A stretch of 64,000 nt of DNA from a phage: assembly GCA_033664045.1 (NCBI GenBank), contig GCA_033664045.1_3674.1; one strand, given 5' to 3'. A program made the translations under genes and the position numbers. Of the stretch, positions 12,224-36,438 are shown piece after piece (the stretch's first letter is position 1; every line of letters starts with the position of its first letter). Under the pieces are notes generated by a model. It made no database searches, was not told the DNA's origin, and saw only the letters and a program-made list of their open reading frames with translations.

Positions 12224-15001
12224 ATGAGTATGTATAGCTTCGATTTTGAGGCCTCTGGGCTTTTGGAAGATCCAGACCTTTATTATCACTGCGGCCTGTT
12301 TAAAGCGTTGAATAAGAACCGTTTTATGCTGTTCCTTCCTCTGAATGACCGCACACACTACTCCGAGGAGGATATAGAGAAGGCTAAGAACTTTATTCTG
12401 GCAAAGAAAACTCTTTATAAGGATTTTGAAGTTCGCATAGCAGATTTTTCGGAGTTGGAAGGGTGGCTTACAGGAAATTCTGACTGGTCACCCACAGCTT
12501 TGAACTGCCACAACTGCTACAGCTACGACTTTATGCTGATGGAGAGATTGTCCGGTATTCATTTTGATATGTTCCGTGATCCTAAGTGTATGGGGACTAT
12601 CAACGACCACCAGGTTAATCTGTTTGATACATTGGCTATGAGCCGAATTTTGTGGCCTGACCGACCTTTGCCAAAAGGTTGTCCAGACGCTGTATTCAAC
12701 CCGGTTACTAAGAAAATGCAGCCTGTTGGTCCTCACGGCCTTATGGCATGGGGCTACGCTCTTGGTAACCAGAAAGTTCAAATTGATGACTGGCGCGATC
12801 TTCCGTTGTGGAAGTATGTGGATCGTGTATTCGAGGACGTTATCATCCAGGAGCTGCTCTGGAAAGAGCTGGTAGCGGAATCAAAAGGTGTATTCTACGG
12901 CAAATCTGACATGCAGAACTTTATGTACGATCCTGCCAAAGAGAAGCCGAAAGGATTCAAGAAGATCACCTGGAAGAACGCATTACGTCGAGGCATGCTG
13001 CAGCACTTCCTGATGGAGCTGCAGGCCCGTCAGGGCGTATACTTCGACATAGATGGAGCTATTGCTTTACGTGACCGTTGCGATGCGTGGATGAAAGAAA
13101 TCGCTGATCGTGTTGAACCACAACTGCCTTTAAAAGAGCTGTCAATGTCTCAGCGGCCCAAGTTCCCTGAAAAGCCGTTTAACCAAGACGGGACAATCTC
13201 CAATAATGGTTGGAAATGGTTAAAAGATAAGCTTGGCTATCCTGTAGACATGAGCGCTTTAGAGTTCAAAGCCCCGCCTAAGAGAGCATTTACCTCTACA
13301 GGAGATGTCAGCAAGATGGGGATAAAATGGTGTGAAGAGATGGGATGCAAAGACCCCGATAAGATGGCTGATTTCTTGAGAGGCTATATTAAGGGCACTT
13401 CCACACCACACCCTTTGCCTAAAGAGCTGATGGATCAGGCAATAAGTGATCTACAGCAGAAGCGAATGCCGGACTGCAAGATACCTATGAAAATCAGCAA
13501 CCAGGACGACATTAAGCGATACCTGATCAGTGCTGGCTGGCTTCCGACAATGTGGAGAACTAAGGATGTAACTAAAGACAGCAAGAAGAAAGCTTTACCT
13601 GATGCAGATGTTGATGCACGAGTATATGCATATATGGACGAGCTTTTGGAGTCAGAGTATTGTGACCTAATTATCAACTTCTGGAACAAAACTGATGCTA
13701 AGTTCCAGACAACCGTGCACAAGTTCCGAAGCTTTCCTAACTCCGAAAGGATTAAAAAGGAAGTATTCGGGAAAATACGTAGAAAAGCTAGGGCACTTAT
13801 TACTTCTCCGCAACTGAAAGATACGTTTGGACACCTATGCCCAAATCTTGAAAAATTGAACGGAGAGATGGCTAAAGATATCGTCTTGTGGTTATCATTG
13901 CGAAACCGCAGATCGGTCCTTGATCCAATCAAGGAGGATAAGGTTGATACTGGTCTTCTTAATCACCCACGCTTGAAGATTGACCATAAGCTTCCTGCTA
14001 AAAGTTCTGGATTAACAAACACTTCCCGACAGAAACACAGTATTTGTGCAAACATGCCTAAACCATCTCCTAAAGTGGTTATGGGTAAAGAGATGCGTAG
14101 TCTGTGGGGTGTTCCTCCAGGATACTTTGAGATCGGTATTGACGGGTCCAACTTAGAGCAGCTTATCGGGGCTTGGGGTGCCTTTGAGTTCGACAACGGC
14201 TTGTATTATGATGTTGTAAGTAACGGGGACGCACACCAAAACAATGCTGAGGCATATACAAAAGTAGCAGGCAGAGAGGTGTCTCGTAACGACGGTAAAC
14301 CTATCACGTATGGGGTTATGTACGGGGCACAAAAAGATAAAGTTGCAGACATGCTGGATATCTCTCCAGAGTTGGGGCAAAGGGTAATCGATGCGCTTTG
14401 GGATGCCAACCCAGGTCTTAAGGGGCGTAAAGAGGATCTGGAGAAATTCTGGGAAGCAACTGGTAAGAAGTTTATCTACTCTTTTGATGGTCATGCCATC
14501 TGGACCCGATCTAAACACTCTTTACTTAATGCATACCAACAAAATGGCGGTGCATCGTTGTGTGATTTAGTTGGGATACTCATGCACCACCAAATGGTGA
14601 GGCGTGGGTGGTACGATGAAGGTGTTCGTCGTATTATCTATTACCATGACGAATATCAGCTTCAAGTACCTGACACACCGAAGTATAAGACTGTGTACAC
14701 CTTCGACACAATTGAAGAATTGGAAGCATTTAAGGCAGAGCAGGAGGCCAAACTTCATGTGTTCGACGGTCATAAGTACAAAAAGGCACGCAAGGATGAA
14801 AACGGAAACGAAGTGGTTGACAGAGACGGAAACACGGTGTACGATCCTATCTTGAACGATGACGGAAAGCTTGAACTTATCTGGAGTCCTGTGGGCGAAA
14901 TGGTGGTACATTGCTTCTGGCAAGCTTCTAAAATGATGGGAGTCCCGTTCCAGATCACAGGTGAATACTTGTGTGGTCGTAATTGGGGTGATTGTCACTA
15001 A
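12224..15001 (+). CDS. DNA polymerase, family A, with 3'-5' exonuclease domain
   Basis: Exo I FDFEASG; motif A IDGSNLEQL; motif B RNDGKPITYGVMYGAQ; motif C YYHDEYQLQV. Confidence 0.9.
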   Translation: MSMYSFDFEASGLLEDPDLYYHCGLFKALNKNRFMLFLPLNDRTHYSEEDIEKAKNFILAKKTLYKDFEVRIADFSELEGWLTGNSDWSPTALNCHNCYSYDFMLMERLSGIHFDMFRDPKCMGTINDHQVNLFDTLAMSRILWPDRPLPKGCPDAVFNPVTKKMQPVGPHGLMAWGYALGNQKVQIDDWRDLPLWKYVDRVFEDVIIQELLWKELVAESKGVFYGKSDMQNFMYDPAKEKPKGFKKITWKNALRRGMLQHFLMELQARQGVYFDIDGAIALRDRCDAWMKEIADRVEPQLPLKELSMSQRPKFPEKPFNQDGTISNNGWKWLKDKLGYPVDMSALEFKAPPKRAFTSTGDVSKMGIKWCEEMGCKDPDKMADFLRGYIKGTSTPHPLPKELMDQAISDLQQKRMPDCKIPMKISNQDDIKRYLISAGWLPTMWRTKDVTKDSKKKALPDADVDARVYAYMDELLESEYCDLIINFWNKTDAKFQTTVHKFRSFPNSERIKKEVFGKIRRKARALITSPQLKDTFGHLCPNLEKLNGEMAKDIVLWLSLRNRRSVLDPIKEDKVDTGLLNHPRLKIDHKLPAKSSGLTNTSRQKHSICANMPKPSPKVVMGKEMRSLWGVPPGYFEIGIDGSNLEQLIGAWGAFEFDNGLYYDVVSNGDAHQNNAEAYTKVAGREVSRNDGKPITYGVMYGAQKDKVADMLDISPELGQRVIDALWDANPGLKGRKEDLEKFWEATGKKFIYSFDGHAIWTRSKHSLLNAYQQNGGASLCDLVGILMHHQMVRRGWYDEGVRRIIYYHDEYQLQVPDTPKYKTVYTFDTIEELEAFKAEQEAKLHVFDGHKYKKARKDENGNEVVDRDGNTVYDPILNDDGKLELIWSPVGEMVVHCFWQASKMMGVPFQITGEYLCGRNWGDCH

Positions 15002-33265: not shown

Positions 33266-33685
33266 ATGAACATTAAATCTAATAATCCGGCATATAGCTT
33301 TGATAACGCTTTTTGTCACGGTCCGGCGGCGAAAGGATTCGAAATCGATGGTAAACTAATTATTGTCAATGTTGACGGGGAAGAGGTTGCAGTATATCCG
33401 GTGGCAGACGTTAAAAGCCGTTTGCAATGCCGCATGGATGTTACCGCCTATCAGCTTGATCCGGTCCGCATAGTTGCCCTGGTCCTGGAAGAAGAAATTA
33501 AAGCCATGCACCATAGCAACAGGTTTATTGGTGACGCACAGGATAATATGAAGGTATGCCGCCATAAAGTTAATGAAGTGCTTAAAGAATATGGCTTTAA
33601 AGATCTGATGATCAAACGTGAGGAAAAATTCCGTTATCGTAACGACCTGGCAAATCGGATTTTTGAAATATACGAATCATTATAA
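33266..33685 (+). CDS. hypothetical protein
   Basis: promoter TTGACA-N17-TATATT near 33186; RBS TAAGAGG; last gene of plus-strand block. Confidence 0.55.
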   Translation: MNIKSNNPAYSFDNAFCHGPAAKGFEIDGKLIIVNVDGEEVAVYPVADVKSRLQCRMDVTAYQLDPVRIVALVLEEEIKAMHHSNRFIGDAQDNMKVCRHKVNEVLKEYGFKDLMIKREEKFRYRNDLANRIFEIYESL

Positions 33686-33703: not shown

Positions 33704-33730
33704 AAGGGGCTTAAGGCCCCTTTCTTTTTG
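33704..33730 (+). terminator. rho-independent terminator closing the plus-strand block
   Basis: aaggggcttaaggcccc + TTTCTTTTTG. Confidence 0.6.
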
Positions 33731-34179
33731 TTTGCTCTTTTCCTACCACAAACGGCCCAGCCTGGCAAGTGGAATAATTGACTAGCCATCAATCCCGCAC
33801 ACTGTACAAATATACATATAAAATAGATATTGCATAACCTTTCATTGTGTGGTAGCAGGGCCATTTTTACACGTTTTTCCTTCCAAAATTGCACGTAATG
33901 CAGCTATTGCACAAAATTTAACCTGATGCACATCTTCAGTATACTGTCAACAATTAAAAACCCTTATAAGTCATACACTTACACAAACCAAAAAGCGTGT
34001 CCTACGTGAAAAATCGGGTGTAACTATAGCCGACAGATCTCAGAATCCACGTACGATCACCATTCTATAGCCTGCAAAGTATTTATTCCAACCACAGAAT
34101 AACGGAATAGTCAATACCTGTATAAAATAATTATTCGTATAAACTGCATAACATAAACCCGCCCAGGTGTCAACATTTT

Positions 34180-35040
34180 TCGTAAACAGTCCGAAATTGT
34201 CACGGTGAGTTATCATAAATAGAGAAATATTTAGTCGTCTAATGTTTACTGTACATTACTATACTGACTGGAATCATTAGATGACTAAGAGAAAGATAAG
34301 AAATAATTAACAATGTAAGTATTTTACCTGCAACAATAAGGCAACTATGCAAACGAATGTCATGGCGCGACGGAGTCGCGACATAATATAAAAGCAGTAA
34401 CCATCACCCCCGTGATAGTTTGTCTGCAAACTATTAATCAGATCATAGTTGCCTTGTATTTAGTTAATCATGACATAACAAGCAAGGCAACTATAGATCT
34501 TCTAATAGTTGCCCTGCTTTTATATTATGTCATCTATTGTAAATCAGTTAATTGTTTTCATGCAAACGAATGTCATGGCTTATCATTTTTGAGTAAATAG
34601 TTTGTTTGTAAACAATCTATACGTAAACAGTTAACTATGTAAACTATTAGATATGTAAACTATTGGTTATGTAGACTATCAGGAATGTAAACAGTAAAGC
34701 GAGTGAATAGTGAGAGCGTAAACAGTCAGGCATGTCAATTATGTTTAATGTGCCCAGTATGTCACTATTGTGTCTAAAGTGTCATAGTATGTCACAGTAT
34801 GTCAGACAAGTTTTTCTCCTCTTTGTCAAGTGCTGCATGAAAAATTTACAAACTGGTATGGTAGCATTTTTGCGGCCCTGTTTACATTCAGTAATGTATG
34901 TATAATCCTTGTTGTGTGGGCGTTTGGACGTCTAGACGGTTGGAAGTCTGCAGGTCAATATCTAATCTATTGGCTGCTAACTATATCCCACACAAATAGT
35001 AAGAAATATGATTGTTATATGCGTAAACAGTAACTCATGT
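34180..35040. repeat. iteron-rich non-coding region
   Basis: at least 8 copies of GTAAAC(A/T)(G/A)T; 5 copies of (A)GTATGTCA at about 10-11 bp spacing (34757-34805); inverted ATAGTTGCC/GGCAACTAT pairs; palindrome cgcgacggagtcgcg. Confidence 0.55.
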
Positions 35041-36222
35041 TATCAATCCCTGTATGTATCGCCAGTGGTGCGCATAATGGGTATTATGTTAAATTGCCCG
35101 TAATGATAACTATTCTCACAATGATAGGTATTCTCATTCACCCCCACAAGATAGGTTGCAAATGTTGTGCCACTGTGTGAACGGCCTCACCTATTAATTT
35201 GCCTCACTGCCTCGATATTTGAGAATTGTTATAAGAATGAGAAGTATTCCCATTCCGTCCGCCTGGCAGCACTCCAGTCGCTACGGCTCATAACAGGGCA
35301 GAACTGGGTCCATTCAGATATTTCTGGCTGGCTCTTCAGGTCTGTGTGGGAAAAGCCAACCTCTCCTGCGGCGGGGAGGGGGTCAATTAAAAAATTTACG
35401 TGGTATATGTAGCGCTGTTCAGGTAAGGCATGTATTATGGGATGAAATCCTCTTCAGGCAATGATATTTGTGGGTGTGATATTTGCTGGAAAGCCAGATA
35501 TGACGGGACTCCCGGCGGGGCAGGGGTGGTACAGACAGGGAAAATATGGAGGATGTGGTTGGGTGAATTGATCAGACAGGTAGAGTATGGAATATGTTAC
35601 AAGTATGTTAAATATGAAGGGTGAATATCTGTAGGATTTGTGTGTAAAATCAAAGACTTAAGTAGTGTTGTGGTATTTTCTATAAATAATTCAAGTTTAA
35701 TAGGTAATATTTGTCTCTATCCACTTTGTGTGGTAAACAAATTCAGATGAGATTGGTTTACAAGTGTATACATAATATACAAATTAAAGATACAAGAAAC
35801 CCCCCTCCCCCTTCGGCTACCATTCACCTTTTCCTCTGACTGGTACTTAAACACTTATTCAGACTCTTCAGGTTATCACCCATATATCATATGGCAGTGA
35901 CTGGTGTCCTCCGGCCCCTCTTTCGTCACCCGTCCGCTTCGCCATGCTAATGCCATAGCCAAATGTTCGGTTGTTCACCCTGTTCACTCAGGTGTATCTC
36001 CATACCCCTTCAAACCGAAGAGAACAGAAAACCCGAATTACTCGGTAAAAGAAAAGAGAAGAACTTAATTTTATCAAGATAGGCAAGAATGTCAAGGCAT
36101 GACTGCTCACTAAACAAGCAAACAGTCATGTGCGGTAGGTAAGTGATTGTGGTTGTAGGAAATTTAATTGAAAGATGTGTTATAGGTGCTTCCAGCACTT
36201 TAGCCTGGCAGCTAATTGTGTG

Positions 36223-36438
36223 TCAGTCCAGCGGTTCATCCTCTACTTCACTGAAATCAATGTTCATGGTCTCTTCCCAACCATCGATCTCAGCACAAGA
36301 GTGGAGTTCTTTAGGGTTTACTCCCAAAGCCTCAGCAACAGAGTCTATATTTAACACCTCTGGCAGGTATGATTCATCGAATTCAAGGTAAATCAGGCCA
36401 CGAGTGTTGTCAGCTCCACCAAATATTTCTATCTTCAT
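36223..36438 (-). CDS. hypothetical small acidic protein
   Basis: last ORF of minus-strand block; MKIEIF N-terminus shared with family. Confidence 0.5.
   Translation of the reverse strand: MKIEIFGGADNTRGLIYLEFDESYLPEVLNIDSVAEALGVNPKELHSCAEIDGWEETMNIDFSEVEDEPLD

What the first reader, a model, noticed from the sequence alone, without database searches (positions are those of the whole stretch)
33731..36222. Iteron-dense non-coding zone where the two transcription blocks converge
About 2.5 kb without convincing ORFs lies between the plus-strand terminator (33704-33730) and the last minus-strand gene (ends 36223). It contains at least 8 copies of GTAAAC(A/T)(G/A)T clustered at 34608-34725, five copies of (A)GTATGTCA at about one helical turn spacing (34757-34805), inverted ATAGTTGCC / GGCAACTAT pairs (34333-34500), two copies of caaacgaatgtcatggc and a palindrome cgcgacggagtcgcg. 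Phased direct repeats like these are typical of a protein-binding array such as a replication origin, a packaging site or a partition-like site.
Basis: seen in the sequence. Interest (0 to 1): 0.65.

Follow-up and report, generated by a model that had tools for sequence, protein, structure and literature searches.

The report
Phage genome ends and packaging zone
This gene-free 2.5-kb stretch of an rV5-like E. coli phage holds the physical ends of the packaged chromosome, a 459-bp terminal repeat flanked by phased short repeats and a large conserved hairpin; the terminal repeat is already published for the genus, the flanking architecture is not.

Summary
The zone has no credible ORFs, and the GTAAAC, TGTCA and GGCAACTAT motifs are strongly non-random and phased.

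The window is a Vequintavirus (rV5-like). The zone is the unexplained "non-coding" box of the rV5 paper. Phages with determined ends (Gotham, HdK5 and others) map both termini to window 34805-35263, a 459-bp direct terminal repeat (DTR).

The 10-bp-phased TGTCA array ends exactly at one DTR edge (TGTCA^GACA). The 15-16-bp GTRAAY array lies next to it. Both arrays are hypervariable: GTRAAY has 0-9 copies among 13 relatives whose DNA polymerase is ≥90% identical, which argues against an essential iteron origin.

The GGCAACTAT inverted pairs belong to a near-invariant 152-nt compound hairpin (z about -12) roughly 275 bp inside the DTR edge. Sister genera (Mydovirus, Seunavirus) carry an unrelated-sequence hairpin at the same position, with 10 compensatory pairs and a consistent strand bias.

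Best reading: a concatemer-junction and packaging region of the T7/DTR type. A late replication role is not excluded; the distant relative ICP1 is the precedent. The terminus itself is already known for the genus. The flanking architecture and the structured element appear undescribed.

The parts
33704..33730 (+). Intrinsic terminator closing the plus-strand gene block
   Evidence: 8-bp stem (5 GC), 3-nt loop, T-run. Conserved in 13 genomes.
34347..34366 (+). First copy of the 20-nt direct repeat ATGCAAACGAATGTCATGGC that brackets the structured element
   Evidence: D11, 100% identical copies 213 bp apart. Both copies carry T at the position where most relatives carry G in both copies.
34366..34380 (.). 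Small palindrome CGCGAC-GGA-GTCGCG
   Evidence: Invariant in 13 genomes.
34380..34531 (-). Compound nested inverted repeat (structured element): perfect 18-nt outer arms (34380-34397 / 34514-34531) enclosing hairpins built from the GGCAACTAT / ATAGTTGCC pairs
   Evidence: I2, I8, I16, I17; DNA z=-12.2; minus strand -69.3 vs plus strand -62.6 kcal/mol. Near-invariant. rV5 has a 33-nt insertion inside a loop. A positional analogue in sister genera shows covariation.
34560..34579 (+). Second copy of the 20-nt direct repeat
   Evidence: D11. Absent in V18.
34594..34726 (+). GTRAAY (GTAAAC-type) array, 9 units at a 15-16-bp period; hypervariable between phages
   Evidence: 0-9 copies among 13 genomes. 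Pairwise column identity 0.24-0.37.
34732..34804 (+). TGTCA array, about 10-bp period; the last unit (34800-34804) abuts the terminal repeat
   Evidence: 2-8 copies in 13 genomes. The terminal TGTCA is invariant.
34805..35263 (.). 459-bp direct terminal repeat (single copy in this assembly). The virion ends correspond to 35263 (left end, read on the minus strand) and 34805 (right end).
   Evidence: Gotham repeat_region 1-459 and 136567-137025; both ends of Gotham and HdK5 aligned; records starting exactly at either boundary; exact coordinate. Literature: PMC7471380, PMC6563267.
35264..35400 (.). Variable outer flank of the other DTR edge; GGCAGCACTCC motif, duplicated in some relatives; indels
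   Evidence: identity about 0.40-0.45 in bins 35250-35299 and 35350-35399.
35786..36129 (-). Near-invariant 340-bp block with an orphan sigma-70-type promoter (36095-36068, TTGACA-16-TGaTAAAAT) pointing at the DTR, and a weak hairpin plus T-run (36045-36033)
   Evidence: 0.965-1.00; 97-99% in 119 records. No significant RNA fold.
36223..36438 (-). Last gene of the minus-strand block (71 aa, rV5 gp158 homologue)

Best explanation
The zone is the chromosome-end (concatemer-junction) region of a Vequintavirus.

Window 34805-35263 is the 459-bp direct terminal repeat that is present at both ends of packaged DNA. In replicating concatemers the terminase must recognise this junction and cut at its two edges, TGTCA^GACAAG... 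and ...CCGCC^TGGCAG, each centred on a small palindrome. The repeat is then duplicated by synthesis, as in T7-type packaging.

The roughly 30 bp just inside the array-side edge (CTTGACAAAGAGGAGAAAAACTTGTC on the minus strand) is shared with sister genera and is the most likely core cleavage signal. The helically phased TGTCA units abutting that edge most likely load or position a recognition protein (a small-terminase-like factor) on one face of the helix. The adjacent GTRAAY array is an accessory, dispensable binding array.

The near-invariant 152-nt compound hairpin about 275 bp inside the edge acts in single-stranded form on the minus strand (DTR-inward). I favour a DNA-level role in end processing or late replication initiation.

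Shown: position of the ends (by homology), repeat statistics and phasing, conservation pattern, covariation and strand bias of the hairpin in sister genera. Inferred: which protein binds what, and every mechanistic step.
For: Identity of the genome and zone. The window is 90-95% identical to about 120 vequintaviruses. The homologous rV5 stretch is unannotated and is the 'non-coding' box of PMC3606486.

Published ends. Terminal repeats of 458-459 bp are reported for HdK5/EdH4 and Gotham. Gotham's annotated repeat_region, and both record ends of Gotham and HdK5, align base-for-base to 34805-35263.

Independent records. HdK5, ECP2309, YN3, bov11CS3 and A13b start at the 35263 edge. Pr121LW starts at the 34805 edge.

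Conservation pattern. The DTR is 95-98% conserved while both outer flanks are hypervariable.

Arrays and cut sites. The TGTCA array has a 9-11-bp period, at least 2 copies in all 13 genomes, and an invariant last unit abutting the DTR. The palindromes at both cuts are conserved; rV5 changes only the central base of GCC-T-GGC.

Sister genus. KPP-1 has a 514-bp DTR with 2x coverage, called T7-type by PhageTerm. It also lies between convergent gene blocks and has a similar edge motif.

Distant relative. ICP1 (polymerase 43% identical) has its terminus in a 1.3-kb ORF-less space with read-start peaks about 460 bp apart.

Hairpin. z=-12.2 in the window and -12.5 in KPP-1. In sister genera there are 56 pairs, 98.6% of cells paired, and 10 pairs with double changes against 4.7 in shuffles (0/500) and 0-1 when partners are slid. 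Strand bias points the same way in both lineages.
Against: No reads or virion DNA exist for this isolate, so the ends are assigned only by homology; the window holds one copy of the repeat.

The packaging mode is disputed. The rV5 paper called the genome circularly permuted. One recent Vequintavirus paper reports a PhageTerm 'headful' call, and ICP1 is interpreted as headful pac.

The TGTCA and GTRAAY arrays are absent from sister genera that share the DTR layout, so they cannot be the universal recognition signal. No terminase small subunit or any binding protein is identified.

The window's own hairpin is nearly invariant, so its pairing cannot be tested by covariation within the genus. One variant (WM) breaks a wobble pair.

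Covariation of inverted repeats could also come from gene conversion between arms or from concerted change of duplex half-sites.

The cut-site palindromes were noticed post hoc and are not evident at KPP-1's coverage-derived boundaries.
Confidence: 0.7

Rival explanations
1. Iteron-type origin of replication. The GTAAAC/GTRAAY repeats bind a phage initiator, and the AT-rich DNA around them melts to start replication.
For: Direct, same-strand, regularly spaced repeats. The lowest G+C of the zone (27.5%) is at 34500-34699. The rV5 paper saw a skew change at the homologous place. In ICP1 the late (rolling-circle) origin is proposed to lie beside the packaging site.
Against: Copy number is 0-9 among 13 close relatives; V18 has none and MaxTheCat and Phage206 have one, although all genus members have a polymerase at least 90% identical. 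The 15-16-bp period puts successive units on alternating helix faces. There are no DnaA boxes in the zone and no initiator gene adjacent. The skew changes coincide with changes in transcription direction. ICP1's early theta origin is far from its terminus. The arrays are absent in sister genera with the same replisome.
Confidence: 0.2
2. pac site of a headful packager. Terminase starts packaging series here and the ends are only partly fixed. The 459-bp block is then the interval between two preferred cuts rather than a true terminal repeat.
For: PhageTerm 'headful' calls for one Vequintavirus and for ICP1, where two cut sites bound an over-represented 460-577-bp block. Short repeats flanking a cut are classical for pac sites such as P1 (own knowledge).
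Against: Two groups report defined terminal repeats with the same start in all virions. At least six independently assembled records begin at exactly the same base. KPP-1 shows a 2x-coverage block and a T7-type call.
Confidence: 0.15
3. Transcription-related locus. On the minus strand the TGTCA array reads TGACA, a cluster of -35-like boxes, and the hairpin is a small structured RNA made from there. The orphan promoter at 36095 makes a second non-coding transcript.
For: Promoter-like sites are in excess: 23 against 11.5±3.5 expected, many on the minus strand in 34500-34800. There is a strong conserved promoter at 36095-36068. The hairpin's strand bias (G·U pairs) fits an RNA. A hairpin plus U-rich tail lies at 34420-34399 on the minus strand.
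Against: No Rfam family matches. The array promoter hits are mostly 9/12 matches generated by the repeat itself. Block 35780-36062 has no fold signal (z -1.2 and -0.3). G·T wobble is also tolerated in single-stranded DNA. No expression data exist.
Confidence: 0.2
4. Functionless spacer between convergent operons, in which slippage has generated short tandem repeats.
For: The arrays are hypervariable and partly dispensable.
Against: Most of the 2.5 kb is as conserved as, or more conserved than, the neighbouring genes. Motif cores and phasing are kept while spacers change. Virion ends map here. The hairpin is maintained by compensatory change in sister genera.
Confidence: 0.03

Closest known systems
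Bacteriophage T7/T3 concatemer junction (short direct terminal repeat, flanking short-repeat arrays SRL/SRR, pac signals, promoter phiOR near the right end, hairpin processing intermediate). Details from my own knowledge of Dunn & Studier 1983 and Chung & Hinkle 1990; the pac description is also in PMC9860248.
   Same: A short DTR with fixed ends. Arrays of short imperfect repeats immediately outside the repeat. An orphan promoter pointing at the junction. An inverted repeat near the junction. PhageTerm calls the sister-genus phage KPP-1 'T7-type'. The family A polymerase is T7-like.
   Different: A 137-kb myovirus with no phage RNA polymerase. The repeat is 459 bp rather than 160 bp. The arrays lie on one side only, have two different units (10-bp and 16-bp period) and vary in copy number between strains. 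The hairpin is far larger (152 nt, nested) and sits about 275 bp from the edge. No sequence similarity. No functional data.
Vequintavirus / Vequintavirinae terminal repeats as published (HdK5, EdH4: 458 bp, PMC6563267; Gotham: 459 bp, PMC7471380; KPP-1: 514 bp, PMC9862379)
   Same: Same element. The window's 34805-35263 aligns base-for-base to the Gotham and HdK5 repeats.
   Different: Those papers give only length and coordinates. None that I read describes the flanking arrays, their hypervariability, the compound hairpin, or the link to rV5's 'non-coding' box.
Vibrio phage ICP1 terminus / pac region (10.1101/639039; PMC11417361)
   Same: Related replisome (polymerase 43% identical). The terminus lies in a 1.3-kb ORF-less space. 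Read-start peaks are about 460 bp apart. A packaging signal has been shown experimentally in that region (via satellite mimicry). The late rolling-circle origin is proposed to be adjacent.
   Different: Interpreted as headful pac. No TGTCA- or GTAAAC-like arrays and no large perfect inverted repeat were found in the ICP1 locus I examined. No DNA similarity.
P1 pac site and lambda cosB-type terminase recognition arrays (own knowledge)
   Same: Several copies of a 5-6-bp core at about one helical turn, next to the cleavage point.
   Different: Those phages give headful or cohesive ends, not a DTR. The motifs are different. Binding has not been shown here.
Iteron origins (lambda ori, theta plasmids)
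   Same: Same-strand direct repeats near the AT-richest DNA.
   Different: The unit core is 6-9 bp at a 15-16-bp period rather than 17-22-bp iterons. Copy number is not conserved (0-9). No adjacent initiator gene.

Membership tests
Short direct-terminal-repeat (T7-type) genome terminus | The same sequence is present at both ends of the virion DNA | tested here: met
   Met by homology only. Both record ends of Gotham and HdK5 carry the block that aligns to window 34805-35263. This assembly holds one copy.
Short direct-terminal-repeat (T7-type) genome terminus | Fixed, non-permuted ends at the same base in independent isolates | tested here: met
   HdK5, ECP2309, YN3, bov11CS3, A13b and Gotham start at the 35263 equivalent. 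Pr121LW starts at the 34805 equivalent.
Short direct-terminal-repeat (T7-type) genome terminus | Two-fold read coverage and read-start pile-ups bounding the repeat | not testable with these tools
   No reads are available. Reported for Gotham and KPP-1.
Short direct-terminal-repeat (T7-type) genome terminus | Large terminase belonging to the DTR-type clade | not tested
   I did not locate or examine the TerL gene in the window.
Iteron-type replication origin | Three or more direct repeats of one unit in regular phase | tested here: inconclusive
   Nine GTRAAY units at 15-16 bp. The core is short, and the period of about 1.5 turns is atypical.
Iteron-type replication origin | Adjacent AT-rich unwinding region | tested here: inconclusive
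   G+C is 27.5% at 34500-34699, the minimum of the array-containing half of the profile (a second low, 27.0%, is at 35600-35799). That stretch overlaps the array itself.
Iteron-type replication origin | Iterons retained in relatives that keep the same replication proteins | tested here: not met
   0-9 copies among 13 genomes: V18 has 0, MaxTheCat and Phage206 have 1. The polymerase is at least 90% identical in all 119 genus records.
Iteron-type replication origin | Cognate initiator protein binds the repeats | not testable with these tools
   No initiator is identified. The neighbouring genes are small hypothetical proteins.
Headful pac site | Imprecise ends and partial circular permutation downstream of one initiation site | tested here: inconclusive
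   Identical record starts argue against it. One PhageTerm headful call in the genus and the ICP1 interpretation argue for it.
Partition (parS-like) site | Adjacent parA/parB-type genes and a plasmid or prophage lifestyle | tested here: not met
   No such gene is annotated within about 4 kb in rV5, or within about 1.3 kb in 12 other relatives. The genus is described as lytic. I ran no profile search of the neighbouring genes.
Known RNA family (Rfam 15) | Match reaching a family's gathering score | tested here: not met
   The best hits have E about 0.6-0.8, far below gathering score.
Conserved single-strand structured element (RNA or ssDNA) | Base pairs maintained by compensatory substitutions | tested here: inconclusive
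   Met in the Mydovirus/Seunavirus analogue: 10 pairs with double changes, 0/500 shuffles reach that, slid controls give 0-1. Untestable for the window's own element, which is near-invariant. Homology between the two elements rests on position and form only.
Conserved single-strand structured element (RNA or ssDNA) | One strand pairs better than its complement (G·U/G·T pairs) | tested here: met
   Sister genera: alifold -78.7 vs -64.4, mean MFE -100.1 vs -88.0. Window: minus strand -69.3 vs plus strand -62.6. The orientation relative to the DTR is the same in both.

The most novel reading that the evidence does not exclude
Vequintavirinae carry, at a fixed distance (about 275-310 bp) inside one terminal-repeat edge, a 150-210-nt multi-helix element that functions as a single strand (the DTR-inward strand). 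It is kept by compensatory evolution across genera even though its sequence has been completely replaced between Vequintavirus and Mydovirus/Seunavirus. This would be an undescribed class of cis element (or small RNA) that couples end processing or repeat duplication with late replication in large DTR myoviruses. The strain-variable phased arrays next to it would act as fast-evolving packaging-specificity determinants.
Probability: 0.3. Interest if true: 0.6.

Novelty: new member of a known kind. Interest (0 to 1): 0.42.

Why it matters
It explains the 2.5-kb "non-coding" box that has been left blank in the type phage rV5 and in more than 100 related genomes. It also gives annotators a correct start point for these genomes, many of which are deposited as circularly permuted or with arbitrary starts.

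rV5-like phages are widely used therapy and biocontrol candidates. Knowing the packaging signal matters for engineering them, for building transducing particles, and for judging transduction risk.

The hairpin and the hypervariable arrays give concrete, testable cis elements for a question that is poorly understood outside T7: how large myoviruses with short terminal repeats recognise, cut and duplicate their ends.

Tried and rejected
Searches that found nothing:
- Rfam scans of the window zone and of the KPP-1 locus: nothing near threshold.
- tRNA scan of the window: none.
- PHROG search of 9 gap ORFs: no hits.
- DnaA-box scan: none in the zone.
- Search of 5,426 E. coli genomes for a chromosomal or plasmid copy or mimic of the terminus region (the satellite hypothesis): no match.

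Attempts to reach other genera:
- IMG/VR pattern scans for the GGCAACTAT inverted pair and for three phased GTAAAC units returned mostly unrelated contigs, including giant-virus bins and tandem repeats. The motifs are therefore genus-specific and I did not follow those hits.
- tblastn with the flanking 71-aa protein found it only within the genus.
- The ICP1 ORF-less terminus region was inspected for comparable arrays or a large palindrome: none found.

Other dead ends:
- RNA folding of the near-invariant block 35780-36062 on both strands was not significant, so I dropped the idea that it is a structured RNA.
- Literature searches for T7 SRL/SRR and pacB gave only a secondary description. T7 details therefore rest on my own knowledge.
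- Loci fetched by accession, or as non-first calls in a batch, were not visible to Python, so I worked through the alignment tools instead.

My own error: I first placed the DTR start at 34808 by miscounting a ruler line. An exact-match search corrected it to 34805. As a result, the query lacked the first 3 bases of the repeat.
Full report
WHAT THE WINDOW IS. The flagged stretch is 90-95% identical over its full length to about 120 phage records, almost all Escherichia phages of the genus Vequintavirus (rV5-like myoviruses). In the type phage rV5 the homologous stretch (104014-106617) has no annotated feature and lies between convergently transcribed genes gp158 and gp159. The rV5 paper draws it as a grey box labelled "non-coding". 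That paper failed to find the bidirectional terminators it expected there, considered the genome circularly permuted, and noted a skew change at 104425-105475 that it attributed to the change of transcription direction.

CHECK OF THE OBSERVATION. The zone has no ORF longer than 81 aa. Nine candidate ORFs match no PHROG family. Different annotators place small ORFs at inconsistent positions.

GTAAACWRT occurs 12 times in 64 kb against 2.6 expected. Eight copies lie within 34182-35031, all on the + strand. GGCAACTAT occurs 5 times against 0.5 expected. An unbiased k-mer analysis ranks GTAAACA, AACTAT and ATGTCA at the top, with p from 2e-8 to 5e-7 before correction for about 2,000 tests.

TGTCA units start at 34760, 34771 (degenerate), 34780, 34790 and 34800. 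The 20-nt repeat at 34347 and 34560 and the palindrome at 34366-34380 are present.

THE KEY FINDING: THE GENOME ENDS ARE HERE. [quoted passage not shown] Gotham's record annotates repeat_region 1-459 and 136567-137025.

Aligning both ends of Gotham and of HdK5 with the window shows that all four ends coincide with one block. An exact-match search fixes that block at 34805-35263, which is 459 bp. My first reading, 34808, was a miscount.

Other independently assembled records begin at exactly these bases. HdK5, ECP2309, YN3, bov11CS3 and A13b begin at the 35263 edge, and Pr121LW begins at the 34805 edge.

In virion orientation (the window's minus strand) the order is: left end, DTR, TGACA array, GTTTAC array, hairpin, about 0.65 kb of spacer, then genes pointing toward the end. 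At the other end the order is: genes pointing toward the end, about 0.96 kb of spacer, DTR, right end.

CONSERVATION ANATOMY (13 genomes). The DTR and most of the zone are above 90% conserved. Two segments immediately outside the DTR edges are hypervariable:
- 34534-34804, which holds the arrays, has pairwise column identity of 0.24-0.37.
- 35264-35400 has identity of about 0.40-0.45, with indels.

GTRAAY units keep a 15-16-bp period, but their number ranges from 0 (V18) and 1 (MaxTheCat, Phage206) to 9.

TGTCA units keep a 9-11-bp period and number 2-8. The last one is invariant and abuts the DTR, giving TGTCA^GACA, a 9-bp palindrome centred one base from the cut. The other cut, GCC^TGGC, is also centred on a small palindrome, and the only variant (rV5) changes just its central base. 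I noticed these palindromes post hoc and treat them as suggestive only.

Two blocks are nearly invariant: 34332-34533, and 35786-36129 (97-99% in 119 records).

THE INVERTED PAIRS ARE ONE LARGE HAIRPIN. 34380-34531 has perfect 18-nt outer arms 116 nt apart, enclosing hairpins built from the GGCAACTAT / ATAGTTGCC pairs. Its folding energy is far beyond shuffled controls: RNA z is -9.4 and -7.6 on the two strands, and DNA z is -12.2. rV5 carries a 33-nt insertion inside a loop. The element is almost invariant in the genus, so covariation cannot be tested there.

EVIDENCE FROM SISTER GENERA. Klebsiella phage KPP-1 (Mydovirus) has a 514-bp DTR defined by 2x coverage, and PhageTerm calls it T7-type (PMC9862379).

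Its DTR also lies in a gap between convergent gene blocks. Its inner edge, CTTGACAAGGAGAGAGAATTGTG|, resembles the window's CTTGACAAAGAGGAGAAAAACTTGTC|.

It has no TGTCA or GTAAAC arrays. About 310 bp inside the same edge, however, it has a perfect 21-nt inverted repeat enclosing 164 nt, with DNA z of -12.5. That is the same position and form as the window's element, without sequence similarity.

This neighbourhood is alignable across Mydovirus and Seunavirus at 73-98% identity. On 10 sequences the consensus structure has these properties:
- 56 pairs, with 98.6% of cells paired.
- 10 pairs with changes on both sides, against 4.7±1.5 in shuffles (0 of 500 reach 10) and 0-1 when partners are slid by 1-3 columns.
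- Large insertions are confined to loops.

The strand reading from the DTR inward pairs better than its complement: alifold -78.7 vs -64.4 and mean MFE -100.1 vs -88.0. The same is true of the window's element, where the minus strand gives -69.3 and the plus strand -62.6. This argues for a single-stranded functional form, either RNA or DNA. Gene conversion between arms, or concerted change of duplex half-sites, remain alternative explanations. No Rfam family matches either locus.

A MORE DISTANT PRECEDENT. The window's family A polymerase is 43% identical to that of Vibrio phage ICP1. In ICP1 the virion terminus lies in a 1.3-kb ORF-less space, with PhageTerm peaks at 431 (+) and 891 (-). The late rolling-circle origin is proposed to be adjacent, and the early theta origin is about 60 kb away (10.1101/639039). 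A packaging signal in that region has been demonstrated through satellite mimicry (PMC11417361). The ICP1 locus I inspected has no comparable arrays or large palindrome.

INTERPRETATION. Near-certain: the zone contains the genome ends and the terminal repeat. Most likely: it is the concatemer-junction and packaging region. The conserved roughly 30 bp at the DTR's inner edge would be the core cleavage signal. The 10-bp-phased TGTCA units would be a genus-specific loading or positioning array for a recognition protein. The GTRAAY array would be an accessory, dispensable array. The hairpin would be a single-strand cis element for end processing, repeat duplication or late replication. This parallels T7, which has a short repeat, flanking short-repeat arrays, a promoter aimed at the junction, and a hairpin intermediate (my own knowledge; pac description in PMC9860248).

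An iteron-type origin is disfavoured for three reasons. The array is not retained among phages with near-identical polymerases. The zone has no DnaA boxes. The arrays are missing in sister genera. A late origin next to the packaging site is not excluded. A headful-pac reading is a minority possibility. A partition site has no support.

WHAT REMAINS UNEXPLAINED.
- Why 340 bp at 35786-36129 are nearly invariant, with a strong orphan promoter aimed at the DTR but no RNA-fold signal.
- Which proteins bind the arrays.
- Whether the hairpin acts as RNA or as DNA.

NOVELTY AND SCORE. The terminal repeat is already published for the genus, so the core identification is not new. The link to the rV5 "non-coding" box, the flanking phased hypervariable arrays, and the covariation-supported hairpin at a conserved position across three genera were not described in any paper I could read. 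I could not search subscription literature. I rate this a new member of a known kind (a DTR-type packaging region) and of moderate interest.

Noticed in passing
window 35786-36129: A near-invariant 340-bp non-coding block (97-99% identical in 119 vequintaviruses, at least as conserved as the neighbouring gene). It has a strong orphan sigma-70 promoter on the minus strand (36095-36068) aimed at the terminal repeat and a weak hairpin plus T-run at 36045-36033. There is no significant RNA fold on either strand and no Rfam hit. Its function is unexplained.
   Followed up: partly
L116 2839-3044 (Klebsiella phage KPP-1, MT438396.1 117138-117343) and homologues L117-L126: A 200-260-nt multi-helix element next to the DTR of Mydovirus and Seunavirus phages. 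It has 10 compensatory base pairs, loop-confined insertions of 50-80 nt, strand-biased pairing and no Rfam family. It looks like an undescribed structured cis element or RNA.
   Followed up: yes
ICP1 literature (10.1101/639039) and L115 1-1440: ICP1's PhageTerm peaks (431 on + and 891 on -) are about 460 bp apart, and a later paper describes a 577-bp over-represented block between two cut sites. This resembles the 459-514-bp DTRs of Vequintavirinae, so ICP1 may have a short DTR rather than classical headful ends.
   Followed up: no
relatives of window 34534-34580 (alignment A2, columns 1004-1050): A roughly 48-nt GC-rich hairpin cassette (AGAAACACCCGAAGGGGTGACCAAAGGTCACCTGGCATAGCCAG) is present just outside the compound hairpin in rV5, Murica, APCEc02, MaxTheCat and WM, and partly in V18. 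It is absent in the window, BP9, FFH2, Phage206, nomo, naswa and slur16. This is a presence/absence polymorphism that looks like a small mobile insert.
   Followed up: no
window 34347-34366 and 34560-34579: The two 20-nt direct repeats bracketing the hairpin change in concert. The window has T in both copies (GAATGTCATGG). Most relatives have G in both, and WM is mixed. This suggests gene conversion, or selection for identical copies.
   Followed up: partly
window 35102-35139 and 35234-35256; L116 2413-2468: AATGAGAA / TTCTCATT-type boxes recur inside the terminal repeat of both the window phage and KPP-1, even though the two repeats are otherwise not alignable. They may be a conserved protein-binding motif within the DTR.
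   Followed up: partly
phage collection hits: Eighteen to nineteen records named 'Campylobacter phage' (MG0656xx, host Campylobacter jejuni) are 93-97% identical to E. coli vequintaviruses across this zone. They are probably mislabelled or contaminant E. coli phages.
   Followed up: no
window 12224-15001 and relatives: The family A DNA polymerase gene is intact in the window. In several relatives (ime, A147, phiWec189, SophiaRose, SYGMH1) it is split into two pieces by an HNH homing-endonuclease insertion.
   Followed up: no
relatives' gene next to the zone (e.g. nomo_87, APCEc02 gp064; equivalent to rV5 gp160): An 87-aa protein adjacent to the gene-free zone is annotated 'DNA translocase FtsK' in several records. 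That name is implausible for its size and is probably propagated annotation. Some relatives also lack the gp159 homologue (window 33266-33685).
   Followed up: no
whole window: DnaA-box-like 9-mers (TTATCCACA with at most 1 mismatch) are over-represented in the 64-kb window as a whole (32 against 19.4 expected, 0/100 shuffles), but none lies between 30273 and 36885.
   Followed up: no
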